A stretch of 64,000 bases of DNA from Escherichia phage vB_EcoM_PhAPEC2. Both the position numbers and the translations under genes were made by a program. The notes beneath the pieces were generated by a model. The model saw only the letters and a program-made list of their open reading frames with translations. It ran no database searches and was not told where the DNA came from. Shown in pieces: positions 6,808-60,598 of this stretch. The DNA lies in the sequence record NC_024794.1. One strand, written 5' to 3'. The first letter of the stretch is position 1, and every line of letters begins with the position of its first letter.

Positions 6808-6850
6808 TTTTGATAGGTCTATAGTATCATAGACCATAGTTGTTGTACAT
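6808..6850 (-). promoter_or_regulatory. early (sigma70-type) promoter
   Basis: minus strand TGTACA, 17 nt, TACTAT, then SD AAGAGGAGAA. Confidence 0.45.
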
Positions 6851-13399: not shown

Positions 13400-13615
13400 G
13401 ATAGACCTCCATTTAAAGATAAGCCTATCATAACACGAGAGGAGGGAATGTAAACTACTTTTTAAGCTTTCCTACTAAAGGTCCATCAGGACCAGGTTGT
13501 TCTAACATGAATAAGGATGCTTTAAAAAGCAATGTCAACCCTTTCACCATTCGATACCATGTCTCAAAGTCTTTTTCCTTGATTTCTAGTAAGAATTTCT
13601 CTTTAAATTTCTCTT

Positions 13616-20071: not shown

Positions 20072-20112
20072 CCAGTAGTTGATATGTCTATAATAACACA
20101 ACTACTGGAGAA
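20072..20112 (-). promoter_or_regulatory. early promoter with anti-SD spacer
   Basis: minus strand GTTTAC, TTCTCCAGTAGTTGTGT, TATTAT; 13-bp inverted repeat with the SD region. Confidence 0.55.
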
Positions 20113-41147: not shown

Positions 41148-41284
41148 TTCATAGGTCTATTATATCATAATATTTAGAGACCTATCTTAAAGCACGAGAT
41201 ACTATCAAAGATACGTAACTTTTATAAAGTTGTCGACTTAAAATTCACCAAACTTTTCTTCGGATATAGTGATTCGAGATAGTT

Positions 41285-48585: not shown

Positions 48586-48890
48586 TATAATGTTCTCTCA
48601 AATTTGTGGAAGCATTTACGGCATTTCAATTTCAAGTTATCAGTGGTCCAGTTAACCAGTTGGACTTGGATAGTTCCACATTCCGGGCATGGATGTTTTG
48701 CTGCCGATTTGGCAGCATTTTCACGTCGTTCAACCATTTTCATTATTTCGTTCCATGCCGGAGGAACGAACTCTTCTTCACCGTGGATTTTATCTCGCTG
48801 AACAAATTCAATCTTTGAACTATCGTCAATAAACTTAACCAAGCCATGACTAGTGCTCATATCAATATCCTCTAAAAGACGTAGTTTCAT
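48585..48890 (-). CDS. zinc-ribbon protein
   Basis: 101 aa; CPECG...CRKC. Confidence 0.55.
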   Translation of the reverse strand: MKLRLLEDIDMSTSHGLVKFIDDSSKIEFVQRDKIHGEEEFVPPAWNEIMKMVERRENAAKSAAKHPCPECGTIQVQLVNWTTDNLKLKCRKCFHKFERTL

Positions 48891-49840
48891 TATAACACCT
48901 CAATGGCATTTCGTAAACCGTCCGCTTTCGCATTCAGAGCTTTTAACGATTTAGTTTGTTCTTTAATCTGGGCTTCGACTTCTTTCAGACGAGATTTGAG
49001 GTACTCACGTTCTTCGCTCAAGTTGTCAACTTTTTCTACTTTAGGTTCTTTAATAGTCTTAAGTTTATACTCGTTAGGGTTCTTCAGCTTAATTCGGGTA
49101 CGAGAACTGAATAACATTGAACCGTTATCTTCGGATTCGTCGAACGTTTCAACAACATCCATAGTCTCTAACAATGTAATAAGTTTATAAGACAACGAAC
49201 GAATAGTTTTGTTGTGCTTATTAATTTCTTCGGCTTTCATAGTACCGAGATTACGTGAGTAGTAATAAGGAACCTGGATATCAATTGACAATGATGCGTT
49301 ACCATTACCAGTTGGTTTGAATACTGCAGTAACCCAATCTTTAACATGAACTTTATTTGTACGGCCATCACCGCCAGTGAATAATTTACGAGAATGTTTA
49401 AAAAGCATATTCACTTGTTTATTGAATTCACAAGCAAATTTATCAGCAAATTTAGTTTCAGGAATGGTAGATAACCAATCAGCCAAATGAGTCTTTTTAA
49501 CATCATTAACAATAGTGAATTCAACCAAATCGGTTTTAGATGTCACAGATTTAATAAAGCTCGGTTTCATAAAGTTTTTAATGTTATCGCGAGCTACAGT
49601 AGAAGATAATAAACGAGAACGTTTGAACCATTGAAGCAGCGTCCCTAGTGAATGAGAATATGCATTTTGAGTATCTTTACAGATATGATTTTCTTGGCCT
49701 GTGTATGTACCAAAATCGCGAAGAATACCACTTACTACATCTCGGTGTGGAACATCAAATCCTAGTGCACCAACAGCGCGCTGGGCACGAACGTTAGCGA
49801 TAAGACCGGCAAAGTATTCAATGTAATGTGAACGTGTCAT
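48890..49840 (-). CDS. hypothetical protein with C-terminal coiled coil
   Basis: 316 aa; own copy of the duplicated promoter cassette upstream. Confidence 0.6.
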   Translation of the reverse strand: MTRSHYIEYFAGLIANVRAQRAVGALGFDVPHRDVVSGILRDFGTYTGQENHICKDTQNAYSHSLGTLLQWFKRSRLLSSTVARDNIKNFMKPSFIKSVTSKTDLVEFTIVNDVKKTHLADWLSTIPETKFADKFACEFNKQVNMLFKHSRKLFTGGDGRTNKVHVKDWVTAVFKPTGNGNASLSIDIQVPYYYSRNLGTMKAEEINKHNKTIRSLSYKLITLLETMDVVETFDESEDNGSMLFSSRTRIKLKNPNEYKLKTIKEPKVEKVDNLSEEREYLKSRLKEVEAQIKEQTKSLKALNAKADGLRNAIEVL

Positions 49841-49864
49841 AATATTTTCCTCTCGTTAAGATAG

Positions 49865-49899
49865 ATTCATTATACTCCAACCATCCTTGGTTGTAAACC
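49865..49899 (-). promoter_or_regulatory. early promoter (duplicated cassette copy 2)
   Basis: minus strand GTTTAC, AACCAAGGATGGTTGGAG, TATAAT; identical to 8900..8936 copy. Confidence 0.55.
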
Positions 49900-49902
49900 G
49901 TT

Positions 49903-50862
49903 TTATGATTTTAATGCATTCATTGCGTTAAAAAGTTTAGAATACTGCAACTGGAGATTCGTTACAACACTTTGAGCATCACGAAGCTTAGCTTGTGCTT
50001 TGTCAAGTTCAACGGACAGTTGGTCTACAGTAGCCTTGATTTGGTTGTAATGATAATCTTCGGCCGGAAGAAGGTCATTAGAAACATTTAGTTTTACTGC
50101 CGACAGTTTGCACACATTTGGCAAACATTTAAACATATCGGGTTGTGCCGGAGAATATGCGCTTAGAACCTCTGCATTACCGACTGGTGTTGCTGTGATA
50201 TTGCCTTCGAACGTTGCATTTTCCTTTTTAAGATTTTGATAGTATTCAGAGTCTTTGTGCCACCATGGCGCAGGAACCTTTTTACCAATAGATACACGAG
50301 CCTGGATAGCGATATGGCCCTTATTCTTGATAATGTCGATAATATTAAGCTCACGAGAATAAATCGCTTTAATCTGGTGGATATTATCACCTAAAACTTC
50401 CAACGCTTGGTGGAATACACGAGCAACGTTATCATTCTTAGGTTTATACGTGAGAGTGAACTCGTTCTCACTGATAACCATGATTTCCAACTTATCGTAA
50501 GTATATTTCAAATGTTTCATGTTAATTGCTTGAGGACGAATACGAGAAGCAATGGCCATCAAATTGTTAAGGTTATTTCTGAACTGTTTAGCAAAATATT
50601 GTCCATAACCGCCAATACAAAAATTACGAAGTTTCTGTTTGGCTAATAAACGGCTGAACTCACCATTTTTAATGAACTCTTTAACGGGTGTGTTAGTAAC
50701 GCATTCAAATTGAGTAAACTTACGAGAAGTAATCCCGTAATATGAACAGATTTCCTCAATCTCTTCAGGAGTCTTTACAGGCATACGGATAGGATTAGGT
50801 CCTGTGGTATATGCGTTCGAGGTAAATTCTTTGATAAGTTCTCTACGTGTAATAGAAGCCAT
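49903..50862 (-). CDS. hypothetical protein with C-terminal coiled coil
   Basis: 319 aa; own copy of the duplicated promoter cassette. Confidence 0.6.
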   Translation of the reverse strand: MASITRRELIKEFTSNAYTTGPNPIRMPVKTPEEIEEICSYYGITSRKFTQFECVTNTPVKEFIKNGEFSRLLAKQKLRNFCIGGYGQYFAKQFRNNLNNLMAIASRIRPQAINMKHLKYTYDKLEIMVISENEFTLTYKPKNDNVARVFHQALEVLGDNIHQIKAIYSRELNIIDIIKNKGHIAIQARVSIGKKVPAPWWHKDSEYYQNLKKENATFEGNITATPVGNAEVLSAYSPAQPDMFKCLPNVCKLSAVKLNVSNDLLPAEDYHYNQIKATVDQLSVELDKAQAKLRDAQSVVTNLQLQYSKLFNAMNALKS

Positions 50863-50884
50863 TTTATATTCCTCATGTTGAAAA

Positions 50885-50919
50885 ATTTATTATACTCCAA
50901 CCATCCTTGGTTGTACATC
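50885..50919 (-). promoter_or_regulatory. early promoter (duplicated cassette copy 3)
   Basis: minus strand TGTACA, ACCAAGGATGGTTGGAG, TATAAT. Confidence 0.55.
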
Positions 50920-51916
50920 ATTCCTTAAGAAGTTTTACTACTTGAATAAGATTAGCTCGTTCTGTTTTATTTTTACCGTTTAAGCCTGCTAATCGTGAGA
51001 TCTCATCGTCAGTCTGTTGAATAGTTACATTAAGTTCGTTAATCAAAGCTTCAAAGTATTTGATTTGCTCAGCATGTTTTGATTCAAATTTCTGAACCGG
51101 AATAACGTCTTGGTTTAGTTCATCAATAAGGTCTTTAAGAGCATCTTCTTGGTTGATATCATATTCAACTTCTTTTATTTCTTCAACGAGCTCGTCTTTA
51201 TATCTAACGTCTTTTAGTCCTGGAGCTGGTCCTGAAATCTCTTCTTTAAGAGTACAAACATACCCAATACGGTATCCAATACCCAGGAACGGCTTGATAT
51301 CAACTTCGTCGATAAATCCACAATGTTTAAGACCAGAGCCGATTAGGTCAAAATATCCTTGACGTCGTCCTTCAAACGTTACACGAACTACTAAGACGGT
51401 TTTACCTGCAACCTTTTGAAGCTCACATTTATAAAAGTCAGTTGAACCTGAATAACGTGGATGAGTTTTAAAGTTCATCTGACGATCTAGGCCCATTTGT
51501 AAACGTGCTGTTACGGCCATAAAACGTGTTTGGTTCTCGTTAAGATGAGCAACAATCCATTTCAAAGGCATTTTACCCTGTTCACGTCCGAACAAATCAG
51601 TACGTCCTAGATTACGCAGGATGTTGTTAGAGTTAATCATCGACAGAACGTTAAGTTTATTCAGCGCGCTGAAGATTCCATCAGCCATTGATTTTCCATA
51701 ACCTTTACACGCTTTAATAAGTGCTCGCGGCAGATTAGTATAGATTTCAGACGGCATATGAAAATCAAATTTTCTAACCAATAATTGATGAACTTGGATA
51801 GCAATTTGCTCATAATTAAGTGCTCTGCGATCGTTATGGTCTTTAAACCACACTTTAATCTGTGAAGCACATAAACCGTTAATTTCATGTTTTATCGCAT
51901 CAGATGTAATGCTCAT
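50918..51916 (-). CDS. hypothetical protein with C-terminal coiled coil
   Basis: 332 aa; degenerate copy of the promoter cassette upstream. Confidence 0.6.
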   Translation of the reverse strand: MSITSDAIKHEINGLCASQIKVWFKDHNDRRALNYEQIAIQVHQLLVRKFDFHMPSEIYTNLPRALIKACKGYGKSMADGIFSALNKLNVLSMINSNNILRNLGRTDLFGREQGKMPLKWIVAHLNENQTRFMAVTARLQMGLDRQMNFKTHPRYSGSTDFYKCELQKVAGKTVLVVRVTFEGRRQGYFDLIGSGLKHCGFIDEVDIKPFLGIGYRIGYVCTLKEEISGPAPGLKDVRYKDELVEEIKEVEYDINQEDALKDLIDELNQDVIPVQKFESKHAEQIKYFEALINELNVTIQQTDDEISRLAGLNGKNKTERANLIQVVKLLKE

Positions 51917-52514: not shown

Positions 52515-52558
52515 TCCAGTAGTTGATAGGTCTATAATAACATAACCATAGACCTTGT
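52515..52558 (-). promoter_or_regulatory. early promoter
   Basis: minus strand GTTTAC, 17 nt, TATTAT followed by AGACCTATCAA. Confidence 0.5.
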
Positions 52559-52990: not shown

Positions 52991-53971
52991 TTATTTCAGT
53001 AAAGTTACTTCAGAGATTTCCTCCCAACCATCCTTATCAGTTGAAATAAAATCTGCTACATAAAGAGCCGTACGTAATGATACATTGCGAAGACGAGATA
53101 CGTTAGCCTTCATCCAGGACAATGCTTTGTACGTTTCAGCATCAGTCAAGCCACGTTTCTGCATCATGTCAGTAGATAATATTACATCTTCAACTCGAAC
53201 CATAATCTCTTCATTAGAGTGTACTCCAAGGTCGAGATACACTGAACGAGATACTAAAGCTTGAAGGTGTGGAGCAAGTTTCGAACCGCGTTCTAACTCT
53301 TTATCGATATCAACGTTTGTAATGAAAACGATAGTACCTTCAAACTCAAATTCTTTATCAATACCCTTATCATCGAGATAAGATGACGCAGTGCTCCAAC
53401 AAACTTTGCGTTTATCTCCGGTATCTAATGCTGCTTTAAGAAGGTTCAAGATGTCCATATCTGAGAATACGTCAACGTCGTCGATTAAGAGAACGCTGTC
53501 TGCATCACGGTTGAGCCAAAGTTGTTCGTAAAGGCCAATACCAGAGATTTTACCATTAATGCTTTTGTATTTGATGAAACCGTTATCATTAGCGTTATTA
53601 AGTGCTTTATCCAGAGAATACGTCTTACCAATACCAGCTGCACCTGAAATAATGAGTGAACGAATTTTGCCATCGATAATGCCATTCGTCATCATGTTCA
53701 TTACTTTAAAGCGTTTGTTGATACGAGTTTTCATATCTTCAGTGCTTTCAACAACTGCAACTGGTGACGTCTCAACTCCTTCCATTACGATGTCTGATTT
53801 GAAGACCCATACTCCACGTTCAGAACCATCGATCATAACGAAAATTTTACCATCACCTAAGTGGGAACATTCAGGATTAAGCTTTGCCGGGAACCATGTC
53901 TTTGTGGCAACATAAGAACCAGAGATTTCGTTATTACGATAGATACCTTTTTTGATTTGAACGTTGAACAT
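52991..53971 (-). CDS. P-loop NTPase (Walker A/B)
   Basis: track ORF 52991..53992; SD GGAGAA precedes internal Met; Walker A GAAGIGKTY, Walker B LLIDDVD. Confidence 0.6.
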   Translation of the reverse strand: MFNVQIKKGIYRNNEISGSYVATKTWFPAKLNPECSHLGDGKIFVMIDGSERGVWVFKSDIVMEGVETSPVAVVESTEDMKTRINKRFKVMNMMTNGIIDGKIRSLIISGAAGIGKTYSLDKALNNANDNGFIKYKSINGKISGIGLYEQLWLNRDADSVLLIDDVDVFSDMDILNLLKAALDTGDKRKVCWSTASSYLDDKGIDKEFEFEGTIVFITNVDIDKELERGSKLAPHLQALVSRSVYLDLGVHSNEEIMVRVEDVILSTDMMQKRGLTDAETYKALSWMKANVSRLRNVSLRTALYVADFISTDKDGWEEISEVTLLK

Positions 53972-53995
53972 TTTATTCTCCAATTTACTCATTTT

Positions 53996-54038
53996 GTTTC
54001 GATAGGTCTATAATAACATGTTTAAAGCAAAAGTAAAC
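53996..54038 (-). promoter_or_regulatory. early promoter with embedded MotA-box-like sequence
   Basis: minus strand GTTTAC TTTTGCTTTA AACATGT TATTAT. Confidence 0.5.
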
Positions 54039-54040
54039 AA

Positions 54041-54259
54041 TTATTTGCGACGAGATTTTTTGGTAAGAGGTTTAAAGAACACTGCTTTACCGGCTGGGGT
54101 TAAGGTGACTCGTAATGCATTACCGATTCCTAAGGATGCTTTAACCAAACCTTTAGCTTTCAGTTCACCGAATGCTTGACGTTGGTCTGCATCACGAGTG
54201 TTAACCATAAGACCTTTATCACCTGCTTCACGAATCATTTCTAACATTTTGGTTTTCAT
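54041..54259 (-). CDS. small basic protein
   Basis: track ORF 54041..54316 reads through a promoter; SD AAGAGGAGAA precedes MKTKMLEMIREAG. Confidence 0.5.
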   Translation of the reverse strand: MKTKMLEMIREAGDKGLMVNTRDADQRQAFGELKAKGLVKASLGIGNALRVTLTPAGKAVFFKPLTKKSRRK

Positions 54260-54263
54260 TTTG

Positions 54264-54310
54264 TTCTCCTCTTGTTTTGATAGGTCTATAATAACATATC
54301 CTAAAAACAT
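54264..54310 (-). promoter_or_regulatory. early promoter
   Basis: minus strand GTGTAC, 17 nt, TATTAT, AGACCTATCAA, SD AAGAGGAGAA. Confidence 0.45.
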
Positions 54311-54339
54311 GTACACTACTTTTTAAAAATATTTTTACC

Positions 54340-54363
54340 CCCTAAAGGGCCCGAAGGCCCTTA
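54340..54363 (-). terminator. UUCG hairpin terminator
   Basis: minus strand AAGGGCC-UUCG-GGCCCUU then UUAGGGGGUAAAAAUAUUUUU. Confidence 0.45.
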
Positions 54364-55353
54364 TCATTTATAGTATGAATTGTGGTTTTCTAAATAGACT
54401 TGCTCAAGGAAATCATCCCAGAAACTCATATCTACTTTTTGTTGCATACCGTTCTTAGCGGCTTGTTCCGATGCTTGTTCAACTTGGCCAACGATATCTT
54501 CTAGGAATTCTTGTACAGTTTTAAACGTATGTTTACCAAGCTTAACATCGAGAATAAATGGAGCATCCTGAAGTGGGTAAACAAGGTCACCGGTTTTGTA
54601 AATTTCCAATAGTTGAAGTCCACCACGACATGCATGACTCAATGCTTTCCAGTCAATACCTTCGTTGGCTTCGGCCTTACGAGCACGTTCACCATAGTTC
54701 TCTTCCAGTTTAACCAGGATGGCATTGAACTCTTTATTGGTTAACGTGTCTTGGAATTTACGGTCCAACAGATTATAGAACGTTTGCTTACCCGTTTTCT
54801 CGTTTTCGGTTTCAACCCACGAAGCAAATTCACCTACAGGCAGAACATTCTTCATATGTGATAAACGAATTACTGCACCATTATCAAAGTATTGTCCCCA
54901 TTCATTAGAACGTTTAAGGGCTTGACGAAGAGCAGCCAGTCGAGAACCCTTGACGCCGTATTTAGAAGCTTGCTTACGGACATACCCTAAATAAGATTTC
55001 ATGTTAGTGGTATAGAAACGAGACCTGTTGTCTTGAATATACTTCCACACGTCAGGCAAATCAGATTTAATTACTAGACTTTGTGGAGTGTGAAGCATAT
55101 CTAATGCGACAGTTTCACCATCCGCAGCTAGTTTAAAGAAATATTTGAGACTATATAACTCATGGTCCACGTCGTCTTTTGTGTTCTTAGAAGATGTGTT
55201 ATTCGTGTTCTTGCTCATATGTTCTTTAACGTTACCGGTCAAGATATCACGAGCATGAGGGACATAAATTTCTTTAAAATCGACGTCAGATTCAGGAGTA
55301 GACGTTCCATAAAGGTGGCTACCAAAGTAGCCTTTCATAATTGTTTTCATCAT
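54364..55353 (-). CDS. Pol-beta-superfamily nucleotidyltransferase-fold protein
   Basis: 329 aa; N-terminal GYFGSHLYGTSTPESDVDF fits the G-S-x(n)-D-x-D minimal nucleotidyltransferase signature. Confidence 0.5.
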   Translation of the reverse strand: MMKTIMKGYFGSHLYGTSTPESDVDFKEIYVPHARDILTGNVKEHMSKNTNNTSSKNTKDDVDHELYSLKYFFKLAADGETVALDMLHTPQSLVIKSDLPDVWKYIQDNRSRFYTTNMKSYLGYVRKQASKYGVKGSRLAALRQALKRSNEWGQYFDNGAVIRLSHMKNVLPVGEFASWVETENEKTGKQTFYNLLDRKFQDTLTNKEFNAILVKLEENYGERARKAEANEGIDWKALSHACRGGLQLLEIYKTGDLVYPLQDAPFILDVKLGKHTFKTVQEFLEDIVGQVEQASEQAAKNGMQQKVDMSFWDDFLEQVYLENHNSYYK

Positions 55354-55823
55354 TTAGCCTTATATTCAAGAGTAGGACAGACTTTTTCTTTACGAGCTTT
55401 AAGGTATTCACCTATTAATGATTTCTTACGTTCAATAGGCTCAAGTCCATTTTTAATTCGTTCTTGGTTTTGTGCAATGAGCTCAACTTCTTTATAATAC
55501 TTCCGCTCTCTGTATAAGTCGATTAGCCACGGTATGCCTAATACTAAAACTATAGAAATACCAACACATAATGCAATGAATAAAACACCTACACCAATTG
55601 AGGCCGGAACTAATGTCCATAAACTACTAAAGACAAAGAATTTAGTTAAAATTTCCTGGCCAACGATTGTGGCCGCTGCTAAAATCGCAAATCCAATAAT
55701 CGAAACAAACAATACCGGGAGAAACGTTTTCCAAAAATAAGCACACAACGTTTTCGGTCGATTCCATGTACTATTAAACGCGGCATAAATTTTAAAGTGC
55801 CAAGAGTTTTCATTGATAATCAT
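55350..55823 (-). CDS. membrane protein
   Basis: 157 aa; several hydrophobic helices; ATGA-coupled. Confidence 0.55.
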   Translation of the reverse strand: MIINENSWHFKIYAAFNSTWNRPKTLCAYFWKTFLPVLFVSIIGFAILAAATIVGQEILTKFFVFSSLWTLVPASIGVGVLFIALCVGISIVLVLGIPWLIDLYRERKYYKEVELIAQNQERIKNGLEPIERKKSLIGEYLKARKEKVCPTLEYKAK

Positions 55824-55832
55824 AATAATTCC

Positions 55833-56378
55833 TTATTTCAAAGTTGGTATAATAGAATCAAGATAAGCTTTAAGAGCAACTGCTTCATCTTTGTCTAATG
55901 TAATGATATGTTGACGAAGGTCATCAATTTGACGAATAACTACGACATCACCATCTTCATAAGAAGGATTAACTCCTAGGACTGTTGTATAGTCAGGGCG
56001 GTCCTGATTTGTAATAAAAGCATTACGGCATTTAGCCCATTGAAGTTTGGCCTTTTTGGCTGTTTCAGATTCCATTAATTCTTTCACCTTAGTGACGAAT
56101 GTTTTCCAATTATTAATAGAAAAACATTCATCTTCGGTTTCGATATTGGCCGCATTGTAAAGACCAGGATAAAAACGAACTTGGAGGTCTTCACCAATGT
56201 TAATTACCTCTCGACGACGTCCAGACTGATTGAGTTTCAAAATCTTGTCCAGTTCCATAGGAAGAATAGTAGCAGCATCATCTTCTTGTGTCAGAACGTA
56301 CACATAACCACGTTTTTCAATACATAAATCACCGAACAGCTCGGTTGTTTCAATTACGGTTTTCATATTATTCACCAA
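55833..56378 (-). CDS. hypothetical protein
   Basis: 181-aa ORF; start may be internal Met (MKTVIETT). Confidence 0.5.
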   Translation of the reverse strand: MVNNMKTVIETTELFGDLCIEKRGYVYVLTQEDDAATILPMELDKILKLNQSGRRREVINIGEDLQVRFYPGLYNAANIETEDECFSINNWKTFVTKVKELMESETAKKAKLQWAKCRNAFITNQDRPDYTTVLGVNPSYEDGDVVVIRQIDDLRQHIITLDKDEAVALKAYLDSIIPTLK

Positions 56379-58552: not shown

Positions 58553-58735
58553 TTATAGTGAATTCACGTAGTCAATGAGTTCTTGTTCTTTCCTGTCAAA
58601 TGATTCCATCAATGCTTGATATTCTTCATCTGTTAAAGGAGCATATTCATCGTACGCATTGGTGGCTGCTTGCTCATCCAATAGGTCATGGATAAGTTCG
58701 AACAGTTTAGTTTTCTCTTCTTTAGTCAATTTCAT
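58553..58735 (-). CDS. hypothetical acidic protein
   Basis: 60 aa. Confidence 0.45.
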   Translation of the reverse strand: MKLTKEEKTKLFELIHDLLDEQAATNAYDEYAPLTDEEYQALMESFDRKEQELIDYVNSL

Positions 58736-59226
58736 TTAGGTTCCCAATCGACAATCACAATTTCTAGTTTAGTGGAATACGTATCTAAAATCTCTTCAAT
58801 GACATCCCAGTTTCCACCACCAATACCTGCACCAATTCTTGGCATATAAATTACAGGCTTTGTTATCTTATTCTTTCCGAATTCATTTAATTCTATTATA
58901 CAATTCATTAAAGCAGAGTACTCAAAATTAGGTCCAGGCTCAAACTGTGTATAAAGATTAAAGCAATAAGCTTTATGGGTCTTAAAATATTTTTCATAAA
59001 CCGAATAAGTCCCGAGTTTAGACTCGTCTCCGAATTCGGTTTGAAGTTTATCGGCTTCTAAAATTTTTGGATAAGCCTTTGCTAATTGTCCTGCCACACC
59101 AGCGCCCATTGTATGAAAACAATTACACCCATGAGCAATATTATTACCTTTAGAAAACAGGGCGACAATATCGCCCTTGATATAGTTTTTAATCACTTGC
59201 TGCAAGTCCTCTAGTATAAGAGTCAA
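58732..59226 (-). CDS. macro-domain-like protein (possible ADP-ribose binding/hydrolase)
   Basis: 164 aa; NNIAHGCNCFHTMGAGVAGQL resembles macro-domain glycine-rich loop; from motif memory. Confidence 0.45.
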   Translation of the reverse strand: MTLILEDLQQVIKNYIKGDIVALFSKGNNIAHGCNCFHTMGAGVAGQLAKAYPKILEADKLQTEFGDESKLGTYSVYEKYFKTHKAYCFNLYTQFEPGPNFEYSALMNCIIELNEFGKNKITKPVIYMPRIGAGIGGGNWDVIEEILDTYSTKLEIVIVDWEPK

Positions 59227-59536
59227 CTAGGCGGTCTACCATAGAATTGCATGCTGCCTTATCTTTAGGTTCCGCCACCGAGCATTCTAATATTTGCCAT
59301 TTTTTATGATATCGTTTAATTAAGGTAGACGCCTTGAACCTACTAGACGCCCCATCTTTTTCTCCGTCTTTATACGCATATAATAATTTTTGTGAAAAAT
59401 CTACTTTACACTCTTGACTTTTACCACAATAATCAGACGCCGTTCTGTTTGTATACTCCGTTACATCAGTATATGTAGTATTAGCAAAAGCGTTAAATGA
59501 AACCAAGCCAACTATTAAAGCCAACATTTTGGTCAT
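59189..59536 (-). CDS. secreted Cys-containing protein
   Basis: 115 aa; signal peptide MTKMLALIVGLVSFNAFA; ATGA-coupled. Confidence 0.5.
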   Translation of the reverse strand: MTKMLALIVGLVSFNAFANTTYTDVTEYTNRTASDYCGKSQECKVDFSQKLLYAYKDGEKDGASSRFKASTLIKRYHKKWQILECSVAEPKDKAACNSMVDRLVDSYTRGLAASD

Positions 59537-60075
59537 TCTTTTATTTCCAGTAGTTTATTTGATTTAAGGTAATTAGCCTTTTCTAGGACTTCAGAAGCAT
59601 ATTTACTTCCAGCACTTGTCTTCCATCCTGCATTATATGAGGATATAGCTTTTCTTATATCCCCATTATGTATATTTAACCAATAAGAAAATTCGATATA
59701 AGCCCATCTGGCTGAATTAGACCGCTTAGATAGCATTTTCTTAATTTGGGCATCAGTCATATTATAACCAAGCTGGTTAATTCTTGCCCTCATTGTTGGT
59801 AGATAATTTTGGAACATTCCATACGCATGGTGACCTTTCTTATCTTTAAGATTAATACCGGCAGATGATTCCTGCCATAGTATTGCGGCCATTATGTATC
59901 CAAGTCCTTTCTTATGCATATTTTCATGCGTTTTAAATTTTCCGTCCTTAGAAAACTGTTCCCCAAACTGATAAGCATAATTCAAGTTATCGAGTTGGAC
60001 ATTACTAAAAGTATGCTCGGAGCTATGTGCTGATAATGAAAGAGCAAATAGACCAGCGAGTAGTGCTTTTCTCAT
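59533..60075 (-). CDS. secreted lytic transglycosylase-like protein (SLT domain)
   Basis: 180 aa; signal peptide; SLT motifs QESSAG, AYGMFQ, SYNAGW. Confidence 0.6.
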   Translation of the reverse strand: MRKALLAGLFALSLSAHSSEHTFSNVQLDNLNYAYQFGEQFSKDGKFKTHENMHKKGLGYIMAAILWQESSAGINLKDKKGHHAYGMFQNYLPTMRARINQLGYNMTDAQIKKMLSKRSNSARWAYIEFSYWLNIHNGDIRKAISSYNAGWKTSAGSKYASEVLEKANYLKSNKLLEIKE

Positions 60076-60545: not shown

Positions 60546-60598
60546 GATTTCTCCTCTAGTTGACAGGTCTATAGTAACACAACTAGAGGAGAAGTAAA
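60546..60598 (-). promoter_or_regulatory. early promoter of regB with anti-SD spacer
   Basis: minus strand GTTTAC, TTCTCCTCTAGTTGTGT, TACTAT; 13-bp perfect inverted repeat with the SD-containing leader. Confidence 0.55.

What the first reader, a model, noticed from the sequence alone, without database searches (positions are those of the whole stretch)
52991..55823. Module of P-loop ATPase, small basic protein, nucleotidyltransferase-fold protein and membrane protein
Four consecutive genes: a 326-aa Walker A/B ATPase, a 72-aa basic protein, a 329-aa protein with the minimal Pol-beta nucleotidyltransferase signature (GS...D.D), and a 157-aa multi-pass membrane protein ATGA-coupled to it. This pairing resembles nucleotide-signalling or nucleotide-modifying systems and their counter-defence analogues.
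Basis: inference. Interest (0 to 1): 0.55.

Follow-up and report, generated by a model that had tools for sequence, protein, structure and literature searches.

The report
T4-type nrdC.10–nrdC.11 early gene run
These four neighbouring genes of a T4-like (RB69-type) coliphage are real and their domains were read correctly. They are known, separately evolving early genes rather than a nucleotide-signalling module, and the nucleotidyltransferase belongs to the RlaP family, whose bacterial members add nucleotides to broken RNA ends.

Summary
**Verdict: ordinary and already annotated.** The four ORFs exist as described, all on the minus strand. The window is a Mosigvirus (RB69-like T4 relative).

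- **ATPase:** the T4 nrdC.10 homologue. It is a divergent AAA+ protein with all canonical motifs.
- **NTase:** the T4 nrdC.11 homologue. It scores above Pfam's threshold for RlaP (PF10127), with invariant GS…DxD…D residues. A 2025 preprint shows that bacterial RlaP enzymes add 1-2 nucleotides to RNA 3'-OH ends, preferring cleaved tRNA, and it places T4 NrdC.11 in this family.
- **72-aa protein:** basic, possibly a winged helix. This assignment is not significant.
- **157-aa protein:** a roughly 3-TM member of a widespread phage family of unknown function.

**The "module" does not hold.**
- The ATPase gene and the 72-aa gene each carry their own copy of an early-promoter block.
- A hairpin terminator follows the NTase gene.
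- T4 lacks both the membrane gene and the 72-aa gene.
- Some relatives lack the ATPase, and in distant phages each gene sits elsewhere.

No CD-NTase, CBASS or MNT signal was found.

**Best reading:** the NTase is an RNA-end repair enzyme that works with Pnkp and RNA ligase 1, which are encoded about 80 kb away. Its activity in the phage clade is untested.

The parts
52991..53971 (-). AAA+ ATPase, homologue of T4 nrdC.10. It is 326 aa from the second ATG; the ORF is open back to 53992. It has an N-terminal ~65-aa beta-rich domain followed by an AAA+ core and lid.
   Evidence: Sources: phrog_1250, 1e-161; 78% identical to T4 nrdC.10; invariant residues; AF2 pLDDT 94.

Invariant residues are G110, G113, G115 and K116 (Walker A), D164 and D165 (Walker B), N219 (sensor 1), R242 in an SRS motif, and R300 in an SLRT motif.

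Foldseek matches many AAA+ clades at E about 1e-5.
54001..54037 (-). Early-promoter-like element directly upstream of the ATPase gene: TTTACT, 16 nt, TG-n-TATTAT, then AGACCTATC.
   Evidence: It contains an exact copy of the 18-nt block TGTTATTATAGACCTATC. That block occurs 8 times in the window, all on the minus strand, against 0.08 expected.
54041..54259 (-). 72-aa basic protein (pI 10.8), possibly a minimal winged-helix DNA- or RNA-binding protein. No equivalent in T4.
   Evidence: (phrog_6001, 3e-42). The best PDB sequence matches are the winged-helix regions of MarR and IclR regulators, but they are not significant (E 0.46 and 1.2). The gene is present in only 136 phage records.
54279..54315 (-). 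Second early-promoter-like element, upstream of the 72-aa gene: TGTACA, 16 nt, TG-n-TATTAT, then AGACCTATC.
   Evidence: exact copy of the 18-nt block.
54345..54362 (-). GC-rich hairpin AAGGGCC-UUCG-GGCCCUU, two bases after the NTase stop codon. Terminator-like.
   Evidence: The equivalent site is annotated as a putative terminator (ARNOLD) on the gene strand in the related record MK373778. The fold z-score of the 56-nt context is only -1.07.
54364..55353 (-). RlaP-family (PF10127) Pol-beta-fold nucleotidyltransferase, homologue of T4 nrdC.11. The NTase core covers roughly residues 1-115. The rest is a helical C-terminal domain with a small beta insert.
   Evidence: -: RlaP, 1.3e-12, 48.4 bits against a cutoff of 23.
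- 68 of 69 homologues match RlaP.
- invariant G11, S12, S22, D23, D25 and D63; D85 is at least 90% conserved.
- AF2 pLDDT 93.
- best structural matches are HalB, kanamycin NTase and other Pol-beta NTases.
- 77% identical to T4 nrdC.11.
- PMC12776372 places T4 NrdC.11 in PF10127.
55350..55823 (-). 157-aa integral membrane protein with about 3 TM segments and a charged C-terminal tail. Its stop overlaps the NTase start (ATGA).
   Evidence: (phrog_944, 7e-52). An alignment of 45 homologues shows three conserved motifs: SWH, LCxYFW, and a C-terminal KxKxCP. No match in Pfam, PADLOC or PDB. Absent from T4.
55833..56378 (-). mobD.1 / y05I-like protein, 9 nt upstream of the membrane gene. It probably shares a transcription unit with the membrane gene and the NTase. 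The finding did not include it.
   Evidence: (Pfam T4_y05I_N at 3.7e-37 and T4_y05I_C at 2.2e-19).

Best explanation
**What it is.** This is the conserved nrdC.10-nrdC.11 stretch of the early, non-essential gene region of a T-even-type phage. It is a run of independently promoted, independently gained and lost accessory genes, not one machine.

**The informative gene.** The 329-aa NTase belongs to the RlaP family. By analogy with the two characterised bacterial enzymes, it most likely adds one or two untemplated nucleotides to the 3'-OH of broken RNA, especially the 5' half of a tRNA cut in the anticodon loop. That would replace nucleotides removed by 'cut-and-trim' anticodon nucleases such as RloC. 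The phage's polynucleotide kinase/phosphatase and RNA ligase 1, encoded about 80 kb away, could then heal and reseal the tRNA. On this reading it is a counter-defence RNA-repair accessory.

**The other three genes.** The AAA+ ATPase, the small basic (possibly winged-helix) protein and the 3-TM membrane protein have unknown, probably unrelated roles.

**Shown versus inferred.** Shown here: family membership, catalytic residues, fold, promoter and terminator layout, and loss of linkage across phages. Inferred: the RNA substrate and the repair role in the phage clade.
For: **Identity**
- The window is 95-97% identical to Mosigvirus genomes, and gene order maps onto T4 nrdC.8 - nrdC.9 - nrdC.10 - nrdC.11 - (mobD) - mobD.1.

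**NTase**
- Pfam RlaP is above threshold for the window protein and for 68 of 69 homologues.
- GS/DxD/D residues are invariant.
- The AF2 model is confident and matches only Pol-beta NTases.

**Literature**
- PMC12776372 shows that Pseudomonas RlaP enzymes add 1-2 NMP to RNA 3'-OH ends and not to DNA or protein. The enzymes prefer Mn2+ and prefer the cleaved-tRNA 5' half. They improve aminoacylation of repaired tRNA that lacks one nucleotide. The preprint names T4 NrdC.11 as a family member.
- PMC7824862 reports that RlaP distribution in jumbo phages mirrors that of RNA ligases.

**Repair partners**
- The close relative phi25-307 encodes polynucleotide kinase and RNA ligase 1.
- Phage-record counts per host genus for Rnl1 nearly equal those for the NTase: Escherichia 635 vs 643, Klebsiella 287 vs 295, Shigella 83 vs 83, Aeromonas 77 vs 75, Acinetobacter 69 vs 69, Vibrio 57 vs 59. 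The ATPase differs: Klebsiella 149, Vibrio 121.

**Against a module**
- Separate promoter blocks precede the ATPase and 72-aa genes, and a hairpin terminator follows the NTase gene.
- T4 lacks the membrane and 72-aa genes.
- Loci L009 and L014 lack the ATPase but keep the 72-aa gene.
- The JS98 72-aa homologue lies 13 kb from the NTase.
- In Aes012 the NTase is at 43 kb and the ATPase at 149 kb.
- RB43-like loci and most Aeromonas-phage and environmental NTase loci have none of the three partners within 10 kb.
- ATPase homologues sit in quite different neighbourhoods in RaK2, DLP_6, Vibrio D493, a KVP40-like phage, Aeromonas B614, Cronobacter LPCS28 and two jumbo phages.

**Dispensability**
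- nrdC.11-mobD.3 is a removable fragment in T4 (PMC9825161).
Against: - No biochemical or genetic data exist for any phage RlaP. The characterised enzymes are in a different sequence cluster of PF10127 (cluster 1a, against cluster 5 for T4 NrdC.11).
- The Pfam match covers only residues 7-136. I could not superpose the model on the PfRlaP crystal structure, because it is not in the PDB copies searched.
- The NTase is not adjacent to an RNA ligase or Pnkp in any phage locus examined.
- The similar genus counts for Rnl1 and the NTase may only mean that both are near-core genes of Straboviridae.
- The ATGA coupling to the membrane gene is kept in Mosigvirus, T2/T6-type and JS98-type phages. It is compatible with a functional pair that I have not explained.
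- The ATPase stays within 1-3.3 kb of the NTase across NTase divergence down to about 50% identity.
Confidence: 0.62

Rival explanations
1. The four genes, or three of them, are a genuine functional cassette. In it, the ATPase and the small DNA/RNA-binding protein regulate or target the NTase, and the membrane protein is an effector or anchor. This is the first reader's view: a nucleotide-signalling or nucleotide-modifying counter-defence system.
For: - The genes are adjacent and co-oriented.
- The ATPase lies 1-3.3 kb downstream of the NTase in about 40 diverse T-even-like loci with NTase identity of at least 50%.
- The membrane gene and NTase overlap as ATGA.
Against: - Separate promoter blocks and a terminator divide the genes.
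- Each component is missing in some relatives that keep the others.
- Genome-level distributions differ. By the per-genus counts, at least 146 Klebsiella-phage records have the NTase without the ATPase, and at least 62 Vibrio-phage records have the reverse.
- Contexts in distant phages are unrelated.
- No CD-NTase, SMODS, CBASS or PADLOC profile hit.
- Conserved gene order is the norm across T4-like early regions, so it carries little functional weight here.
Confidence: 0.1
2. The NTase and the translationally coupled membrane protein form a Hailong-like pair: an oligonucleotide-making NTase plus a membrane channel. Alternatively, the NTase is a phage decoy that supplies oligodeoxyadenylate to keep a host HalA channel closed.
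For: - Hailong is a two-gene system of NTase plus transmembrane protein (PMC13434031).
- The two genes here overlap as ATGA.
Against: - Identity to HalB is only 16%. The A1 profile finds no HalB sequence in the PDB at E up to 1.
- The Pfam assignment is RlaP, not a Hailong family.
- The membrane protein has no sequence match to HalA or to any PADLOC model.
- T4 keeps the NTase without the membrane gene. The membrane family also occurs in 92-kb Pseudomonas phages and in ICP1; whether those genomes also carry the NTase was not checked.
- In many relatives another gene lies between the two.
- Structural similarity among Pol-beta NTase cores is generic.
Confidence: 0.04
3. The NTase acts on a substrate other than damaged RNA. 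Candidates are tRNA 3'-CCA ends, phage or host mRNA tailing, a protein (AMPylation, as in MNT/DrrA-type enzymes) or a small molecule (as in aminoglycoside NTases). Its role would then be host takeover rather than repair.
For: - The best full-length structural matches include kanamycin and other antibiotic NTases, the DrrA and GlnE adenylyltransferases, and HEPN-like hits to the C-terminal helical domain.
- The phage clade is distant from the assayed RlaP enzymes, and only the N-terminal half aligns to the Pfam model.
- There is no gene-neighbourhood link to ligases in phages.
Against: - RlaP is the only significant profile match, and it is consistent over 68 of 69 homologues.
- The assayed RlaP enzymes did not label E. 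coli protein or DNA.
- NCBIfam MntA scores 12.9 bits against a cutoff of 60.
- Genome-level co-occurrence with Rnl1 and the published correlation in jumbo phages both point to RNA repair.
Confidence: 0.18

Closest known systems
T4 NrdC.11 / RlaP family (Pfam PF10127, COG3541), RNA ligase-associating Pol-beta NTases
   Same: - 77% identical to T4 NrdC.11.
- Pfam RlaP is above threshold.
- Invariant GS, DxD and third Asp.
- The model has an N-terminal NTase domain plus a C-terminal helical domain, as described for the PfRlaP crystal structure (PMC12776372).
   Different: - The phage clade is a separate sequence cluster from the assayed Pseudomonas enzymes.
- The gene is not in an RtcB or RNA-ligase operon. 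The ligase and Pnkp lie about 80 kb away.
- It carries a beta-sheet insert at about residues 177-201 and a loop at 41-61.
- Activity is untested.
T4 NrdC.10 (phrog_1250), uncharacterised phage AAA+ ATPase
   Same: 78% identical to T4 NrdC.10. It has the same length and motifs. It has been flagged as an AAA ATPase since Nolan et al. 2006 (PMC1524935).
   Different: Nothing notable. No AAA+ clade can be assigned: Foldseek matches E1, BrxL, RuvB, NSF, RFC, ORC and Hda about equally. The best PDB profile hit is Cdc6 at E 0.026. Jumbo-phage homologues lack the N-terminal beta domain.
T4 RNA repair pathway (Pnkp/PseT + Rnl1) against anticodon nucleases PrrC and RloC
   Same: The proposed functional context. 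Both repair enzymes are encoded in the close relative's genome. Their phage distribution parallels that of the NTase.
   Different: The classical pathway needs no NTase. A role for NrdC.11 in it is a published prediction (PMC12776372, PMC7824862), not a demonstrated step.
Hailong (HalA membrane channel + HalB NTase) anti-phage system
   Different: - This is a phage gene pair, not a host one.
- There is no sequence-level relation to HalA or HalB.
- The NTase is about 110 residues longer and has a different C-terminal domain.
- The pairing is not conserved.
CD-NTases (CBASS) and minimal NTases (MNT/MntA)
   Same: The Pol-beta fold and the GS…DxD signature only.
   Different: No SMODS, CD-NTase or PADLOC hit. 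MntA scores 12.9 bits against a cutoff of 60. cGAS and DncV do not appear among the structural matches.

Membership tests
RlaP (PF10127) | Profile HMM score above the curated gathering threshold | tested here: met
   48.4 bits against a cutoff of 23, E 1.3e-12. 68 of 69 homologues at 33-52% identity also match, best E 2.2e-19. The match covers only residues 7-136 (profile positions 23-143 of 249).
RlaP (PF10127) | Pol-beta catalytic signature: G[SG], DxD and a third conserved Asp | tested here: met
   G11, S12, D23, D25 and D63 are invariant; D61 and D85 are at least 90% conserved in A1. D63 lies at the start of the strand at residues 62-68 in the model. Assigning D63 as the third metal ligand is inference.
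RlaP (PF10127) | Two-domain architecture: N-terminal NTase domain plus C-terminal helical domain forming a cleft (PfRlaP crystal structure) | tested here: inconclusive
   The AF2 model (pLDDT 93) shows an NTase core followed by long helices. The PfRlaP coordinates are absent from the PDB copies searched, so no superposition was possible.
RlaP (PF10127) | Gene neighbourhood with an RNA ligase (RtcB or a 5'-P ligase) | tested here: not met
   No ligase or Pnkp was recognised next to the NTase in the 79 of 82 NTase loci examined. Only the three ORFs on either side were inspected, and function was judged by eye for ten of the larger ones. In the close relative, Pnkp and Rnl1 lie about 80 kb away. 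Only genome-level co-occurrence is seen.
RlaP (PF10127) | Adds 1-2 NMP to RNA 3'-OH ends, Mn2+-dependent | not testable with these tools
   Shown only for the P. fluorescens and P. aeruginosa enzymes (PMC12776372).
CD-NTase / CBASS-type signalling NTase | Match to a SMODS/CD-NTase profile or to a cGAS/DncV-like fold | tested here: not met
   [not shown]
MNT / MntA minimal NTase (type VII TA) | Profile match and an adjacent HEPN toxin partner | tested here: not met
   [not shown]
Hailong (HalA/HalB) | HalB-like NTase together with a HalA-like transmembrane channel | tested here: not met
   [not shown]
AAA+ ATPase superfamily | Walker A, Walker B, sensor 1, arginine finger, sensor 2, and an alpha-beta-alpha core with a helical lid | tested here: met
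   Invariant residues are G110/G113/G115/K116, D164/D165, N219, R242 and R300. The AF2 model has pLDDT 94. 156 PDB chains match at E up to 1e-3; the 50 listed are AAA+-type ATPases. Pfam AAA_22 and AAA_16 hits are below threshold. Assigning R242 and R300 as the arginine finger and sensor 2 is inference from motif position.
Winged-helix DNA-binding proteins (72-aa protein) | Significant profile or structural match to a wHTH domain | tested here: inconclusive
   No Pfam hit. The best PDB sequence matches are the MarR (E 0.46) and IclR/AllR (E 1.2) winged-helix regions, neither significant.

The most novel reading that the evidence does not exclude
The translationally coupled pair behaves as one unit that links oligonucleotide synthesis or RNA-end modification to the membrane. 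The pair is the ~3-TM protein, with its conserved SWH / LCxYFW / KxCP motifs, and the RlaP-type NTase. It could be a phage-borne Hailong-like device or an anti-Hailong decoy, with the AAA+ ATPase and the small basic protein as lineage-specific regulators. My evidence makes this unlikely but does not exclude it. The coupling is kept in three T-even genera, and HalB is the nearest solved structure.
Probability: 0.05. Interest if true: 0.6.

Novelty: already known. Interest (0 to 1): 0.2.

Why it matters
As it stands, this finding adds nothing beyond current annotation. The genes are 95-100% identical to deposited Mosigvirus genes. Their domains were reported in 2006, and the NTase family was named in 2016 according to the later papers read here. 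The family was characterised biochemically in a 2025 preprint that cites T4 NrdC.11.

What remains open is whether T-even phages really use this NTase as a third step of their classical tRNA repair pathway, to defeat 'cut-and-trim' anticodon nucleases such as RloC. That question is directly testable with T4 or RB69 genetics. A positive answer would complete a 30-year-old model system. It has already been posed in the literature and does not arise from this window.

Tried and rejected
- **PDB sequence searches.** I ran all four single proteins, plus profiles A1 and A3 for the NTase and ATPase, against the PDB. Nothing was significant, and the PfRlaP structure was not found.
- **NCBIfam and PADLOC scans.** Nothing useful.
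- **First large homologue search with the NTase.** It returned only near-identical sequences and was useless for diversity. The 50%-representative search was used instead.
- **ATPase structure prediction from locus-derived homologues.** I repeated it with homologues found using a distant query.
- **AFDB Foldseek search.** The library was unavailable.
- **Genome-contig scan with A1, to fetch bacterial RlaP loci.** I therefore could not do a profile-profile comparison or a neighbourhood check with bacterial RlaP.
- **RNA-repair genes next to the NTase in distant viral loci.** The large neighbours look like primase-helicase, DNA polymerases, an integrase, a MoxR-like ATPase, an NMN adenylyltransferase/Nudix protein, a DNA methylase and a PRPP synthetase, judged by eye. 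None is a ligase.
- **Paralogy of the upstream 316-332-aa genes.** Not detectable by BLASTP.
- **Rfam scan of the whole window.** No hits.
- **Hairpin stability against shuffles.** Not significant in a 56-nt context (z -1.07).


Full report
**1. What the window is.** The region is 95-97% identical over its full length to Mosigvirus (RB69-like) coliphage and Shigella-phage genomes. All genes here run on the minus strand. Against the annotated T4 map and a RefSeq Mosigvirus, local tblastn shows this order along transcription: tk … rI … mobD.1 - [157-aa membrane gene] - nrdC.11 - [72-aa gene] - nrdC.10 - nrdC.9 - nrdC.8 - nrdC.5/4/3. The finding is therefore the nrdC.10/nrdC.11 part of the T-even early region.

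**2. The observation.** All four ORFs exist at the stated coordinates.
- The ATPase ORF is open for 333 codons. The second ATG (53971) has a GGAG Shine-Dalgarno sequence, and the PHROG family alignment starts there.
- Walker A (GAAGIGKT, residue 110), Walker B (VLLIDD, residue 160) and the NTase signature (GSHLYGTSTPESDVD, residues 11-25) are present.
- The 72-aa protein has pI 10.8.
- The membrane gene's TGA overlaps the NTase ATG as ATGA.
- Each protein belongs to a populated phage family: phrog_1250, 6001, 388 and 944, with E-values from 1e-161 to 3e-42.

**3. The NTase.**
- *Family.* Pfam assigns it to RlaP (PF10127, "RNA repair pathway DNA polymerase beta family") at 48.4 bits against a gathering score of 23. 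The alignment covers only residues 7-136. An exhaustive search of 50%-identity representatives found 3,241 relatives. Of 69 aligned sequences at 33-52% identity, 68 hit RlaP and no other family.
- *Catalytic residues.* G11, S12, D23, D25 and D63 are invariant, and D85 is nearly so.
- *Negative scans.* PADLOC and NCBIfam give nothing. MntA scores 12.9 bits against a cutoff of 60.

**4. What is known about that family.**
- Nolan et al. 2006 already reported nrdC.11 as a COG3541 NTase, conserved in the T4-like genomes they compared. They reported nrdC.10 as an AAA ATPase present in 3 of 6 (PMC1524935).
- The family was later named RlaP because bacterial members sit in RtcB and other RNA-ligase operons.
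- A December 2025 preprint (PMC12776372) characterises two Pseudomonas RlaP enzymes.
  - They add one or two NMP or dNMP to RNA 3'-OH ends, and not to DNA or protein.
  - They prefer Mn2+ and favour the 5' half of a cleaved tRNA.
  - They partially restore aminoacylation of a repaired tRNA that had lost one nucleotide.
  - The preprint explicitly locates T4 NrdC.11 in the PF10127 similarity network, in cluster 5; the assayed enzymes are in cluster 1a.
- Iyer et al. 2021 report that RlaP distribution in jumbo phages mirrors that of RNA ligases. They predict it restores nucleotides removed by RloC-type nucleases before ligation (PMC7824862).

**5. Consistency with that role here.**
- The close relative phi25-307 encodes polynucleotide kinase and RNA ligase 1, about 80 kb from the NTase.
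- tblastn counts of phage records per host genus are almost the same for Rnl1 and the NTase. The ATPase has a different profile.

| Host genus | Rnl1 | NTase | ATPase |
|---|---|---|---|
| Escherichia | 635 | 643 | 556 |
| Klebsiella | 287 | 295 | 149 |
| Shigella | 83 | 83 | 76 |
| Aeromonas | 77 | 75 | 48 |
| Acinetobacter | 69 | 69 | 72 |
| Vibrio | 57 | 59 | 121 |
| Enterobacter | 56 | 56 | 36 |

- This is a crude test. It may only show that the NTase and Rnl1 are both near-core Straboviridae genes.
- No ligase or Pnkp was seen among the three ORFs on either side of the NTase in the 79 of 82 loci that could be analysed.

**6. The ATPase.**
- An alignment of 66 homologues down to 34% identity keeps Walker A, Walker B, N219 (sensor 1 position), R242 in an SRS motif reminiscent of clamp-loader box VII, and R300 in SLRT (sensor 2 position).
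- The AF2 model (pLDDT 94.3) has an N-terminal beta-rich domain of about 65 residues, an AAA+ core and a helical lid.
- Foldseek matches E1, BrxL, RuvB, NSF, RFC, ORC/Cdc6, Hda and sigma-54 activators about equally, at E around 1e-5. No clade can be assigned. The PDB profile search gives only Cdc6 at E 0.026.
- Jumbo-phage homologues lack the N-terminal domain, and the Stenotrophomonas-phage group has a different one. Its function remains unknown.

**7. The small protein and the membrane protein.**
- *72-aa protein.* It has no Pfam match. Its best, non-significant PDB matches align the recognition helix and wing of MarR and IclR regulators (E 0.46 and 1.2). "Winged helix" is only a guess. It occurs in just 136 phage records.
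- *157-aa protein.* It has about three TM segments and a charged tail. Forty-five distinct homologues share three motifs: an N-terminal SWH, LCxYFW, and a C-terminal KxKxCPxhxF. It has no Pfam, PADLOC or PDB match. The family occurs in 1,281 phage records, including 92-kb Pseudomonas phages and ICP1.

**8. Is it a module? Transcription signals.**
- An 18-nt block, TGTTATTATAGACCTATC (extended -10 plus start region), occurs 8 times in the window. All copies are on the transcribed strand, against 0.08 expected.
- Exact copies lie immediately upstream of the nrdC.8-like gene, the ATPase gene and the 72-aa gene. Each is preceded by a -35-like hexamer at 16 nt.
- Two bases after the NTase stop lies a GGGCC-UUCG-GGCCC hairpin. 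A related GenBank record annotates the same site as a terminator on that strand.
- Only mobD.1 - membrane - NTase are tightly packed, with a 9-nt gap and a 4-nt overlap.
- So the four genes fall into at least three promoter-defined units. The tight unit includes a gene the finding left out.

**9. Is it a module? Comparative data.**
- The ATPase lies 1-3.3 kb downstream of the NTase only in enterobacterial and Acinetobacter T4-like phages (NTase identity at least 50%), often with other small genes between them.
- RB43-like loci and most Aeromonas-phage and environmental loci have none of the three partners within 10 kb.
- T4 and a T4-like locus (L007) lack the membrane gene. T4 has the MobD homing endonuclease at that position, and T4 also lacks the 72-aa gene.
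- L009 and L014 (VR26 and VR20) keep the 72-aa gene but lack the ATPase.
- In JS98 the 72-aa homologue is 13 kb from the NTase.
- In Aes012 the NTase is at 43 kb and the ATPase at 149 kb.
- In many Klebsiella and Enterobacter phages a mobD.1-like gene separates the membrane gene from the NTase.
- ATPase homologues in eight other phages lie next to clamp loader/regA/dUTPase, topoisomerase, nrdC, motA-asiA, or arrays of small membrane proteins, never next to an NTase. The phages are RaK2, DLP_6, Vibrio D493, a KVP40-like phage, Aeromonas B614, Cronobacter LPCS28 and two jumbo phages.
- From the genus counts, at least 146 Klebsiella-phage records have the NTase without the ATPase, and at least 62 Vibrio-phage records have the reverse.
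- The adjacency is thus lineage-specific synteny of the kind seen throughout T4-like early regions.
- A genome-reduction study found nrdC.11-mobD.3 deletable in T4 (PMC9825161). That fits an accessory role.

**10. Conclusion.** The nucleotide-signalling module interpretation is not supported.
- *Best mechanistic reading.* The NTase is a phage RlaP that trims-in missing 3' nucleotides on nuclease-damaged tRNA. It would act upstream of Pnkp and Rnl1. This is a counter-defence function of a different kind from the one proposed. The step from family to function in the phage clade is inference.
- *Residual oddities.* The conserved ATGA coupling with the 3-TM protein and the structural proximity to Hailong HalB are noted as low-probability leads.

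Noticed in passing
window 6812-6829, 13418-13435, 20081-20098, 41150-41167, 52525-52542, 54001-54018, 54279-54296, 60562-60579 (all minus strand): An 18-nt block, TGTTATTATAGACCTATC, recurs 8 times with up to 3 mismatches, against 0.08 expected. Every copy is on the transcribed strand. The three exact copies sit just upstream of genes. It looks like the shared -10/start region of this phage's early promoters.
   Followed up: partly
window 55350-55823 (-), and homologues in L002-L070: The 157-aa membrane protein family keeps an N-terminal SWH motif, an LCxYFW motif before TM1, and a C-terminal KxKxCPxhxF motif across 45 distinct homologues. That is one His and two Cys flanking the TM bundle, possibly a metal or redox site. 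The family also occurs in 92-kb Pseudomonas phages and Vibrio phage ICP1.
   Followed up: partly
[not shown]
   Followed up: partly
window 55833-56378 (-): The mobD.1 / y05I-like gene (Pfam T4_y05I_N and T4_y05I_C, "putative transcription factor") lies 9 nt upstream of the membrane gene. In some Klebsiella and Enterobacter phages a gene of similar size (~180 aa, identity not checked) sits between the membrane gene and the NTase, so the order of these three genes may vary.
   Followed up: no
window 48890-51916 (-): Three consecutive genes of 316-332 aa (nrdC.3-, nrdC.4- and nrdC.5-like) all end in coiled-coil-like C-termini. They are not detectably paralogous by BLASTP. The middle one is Pfam DUF7235 (E 4e-119).
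   Followed up: partly
L009 and L014 (phages VR26 and VR20), about 1.1-1.9 kb downstream of the NTase: In these relatives the ATPase gene is missing, but the 72-aa gene and nrdC.9/nrdC.8 remain in order. This shows clean loss or replacement of the nrdC.10 cassette.
   Followed up: no
window 58732-59226 (-) and 59533-60075 (-): Downstream of tk lie a Tk.4-like gene and a vs.1-like gene. In T4 these are annotated as an A1pp (macro-domain) phosphatase and an SLT-like protein. I assigned them here by position and by eye only and did not profile-test them.
   Followed up: no
whole window: No Rfam family reaches its gathering score anywhere in the 64 kb, so the window contains no tRNA cluster or known structured RNA.
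   Followed up: yes
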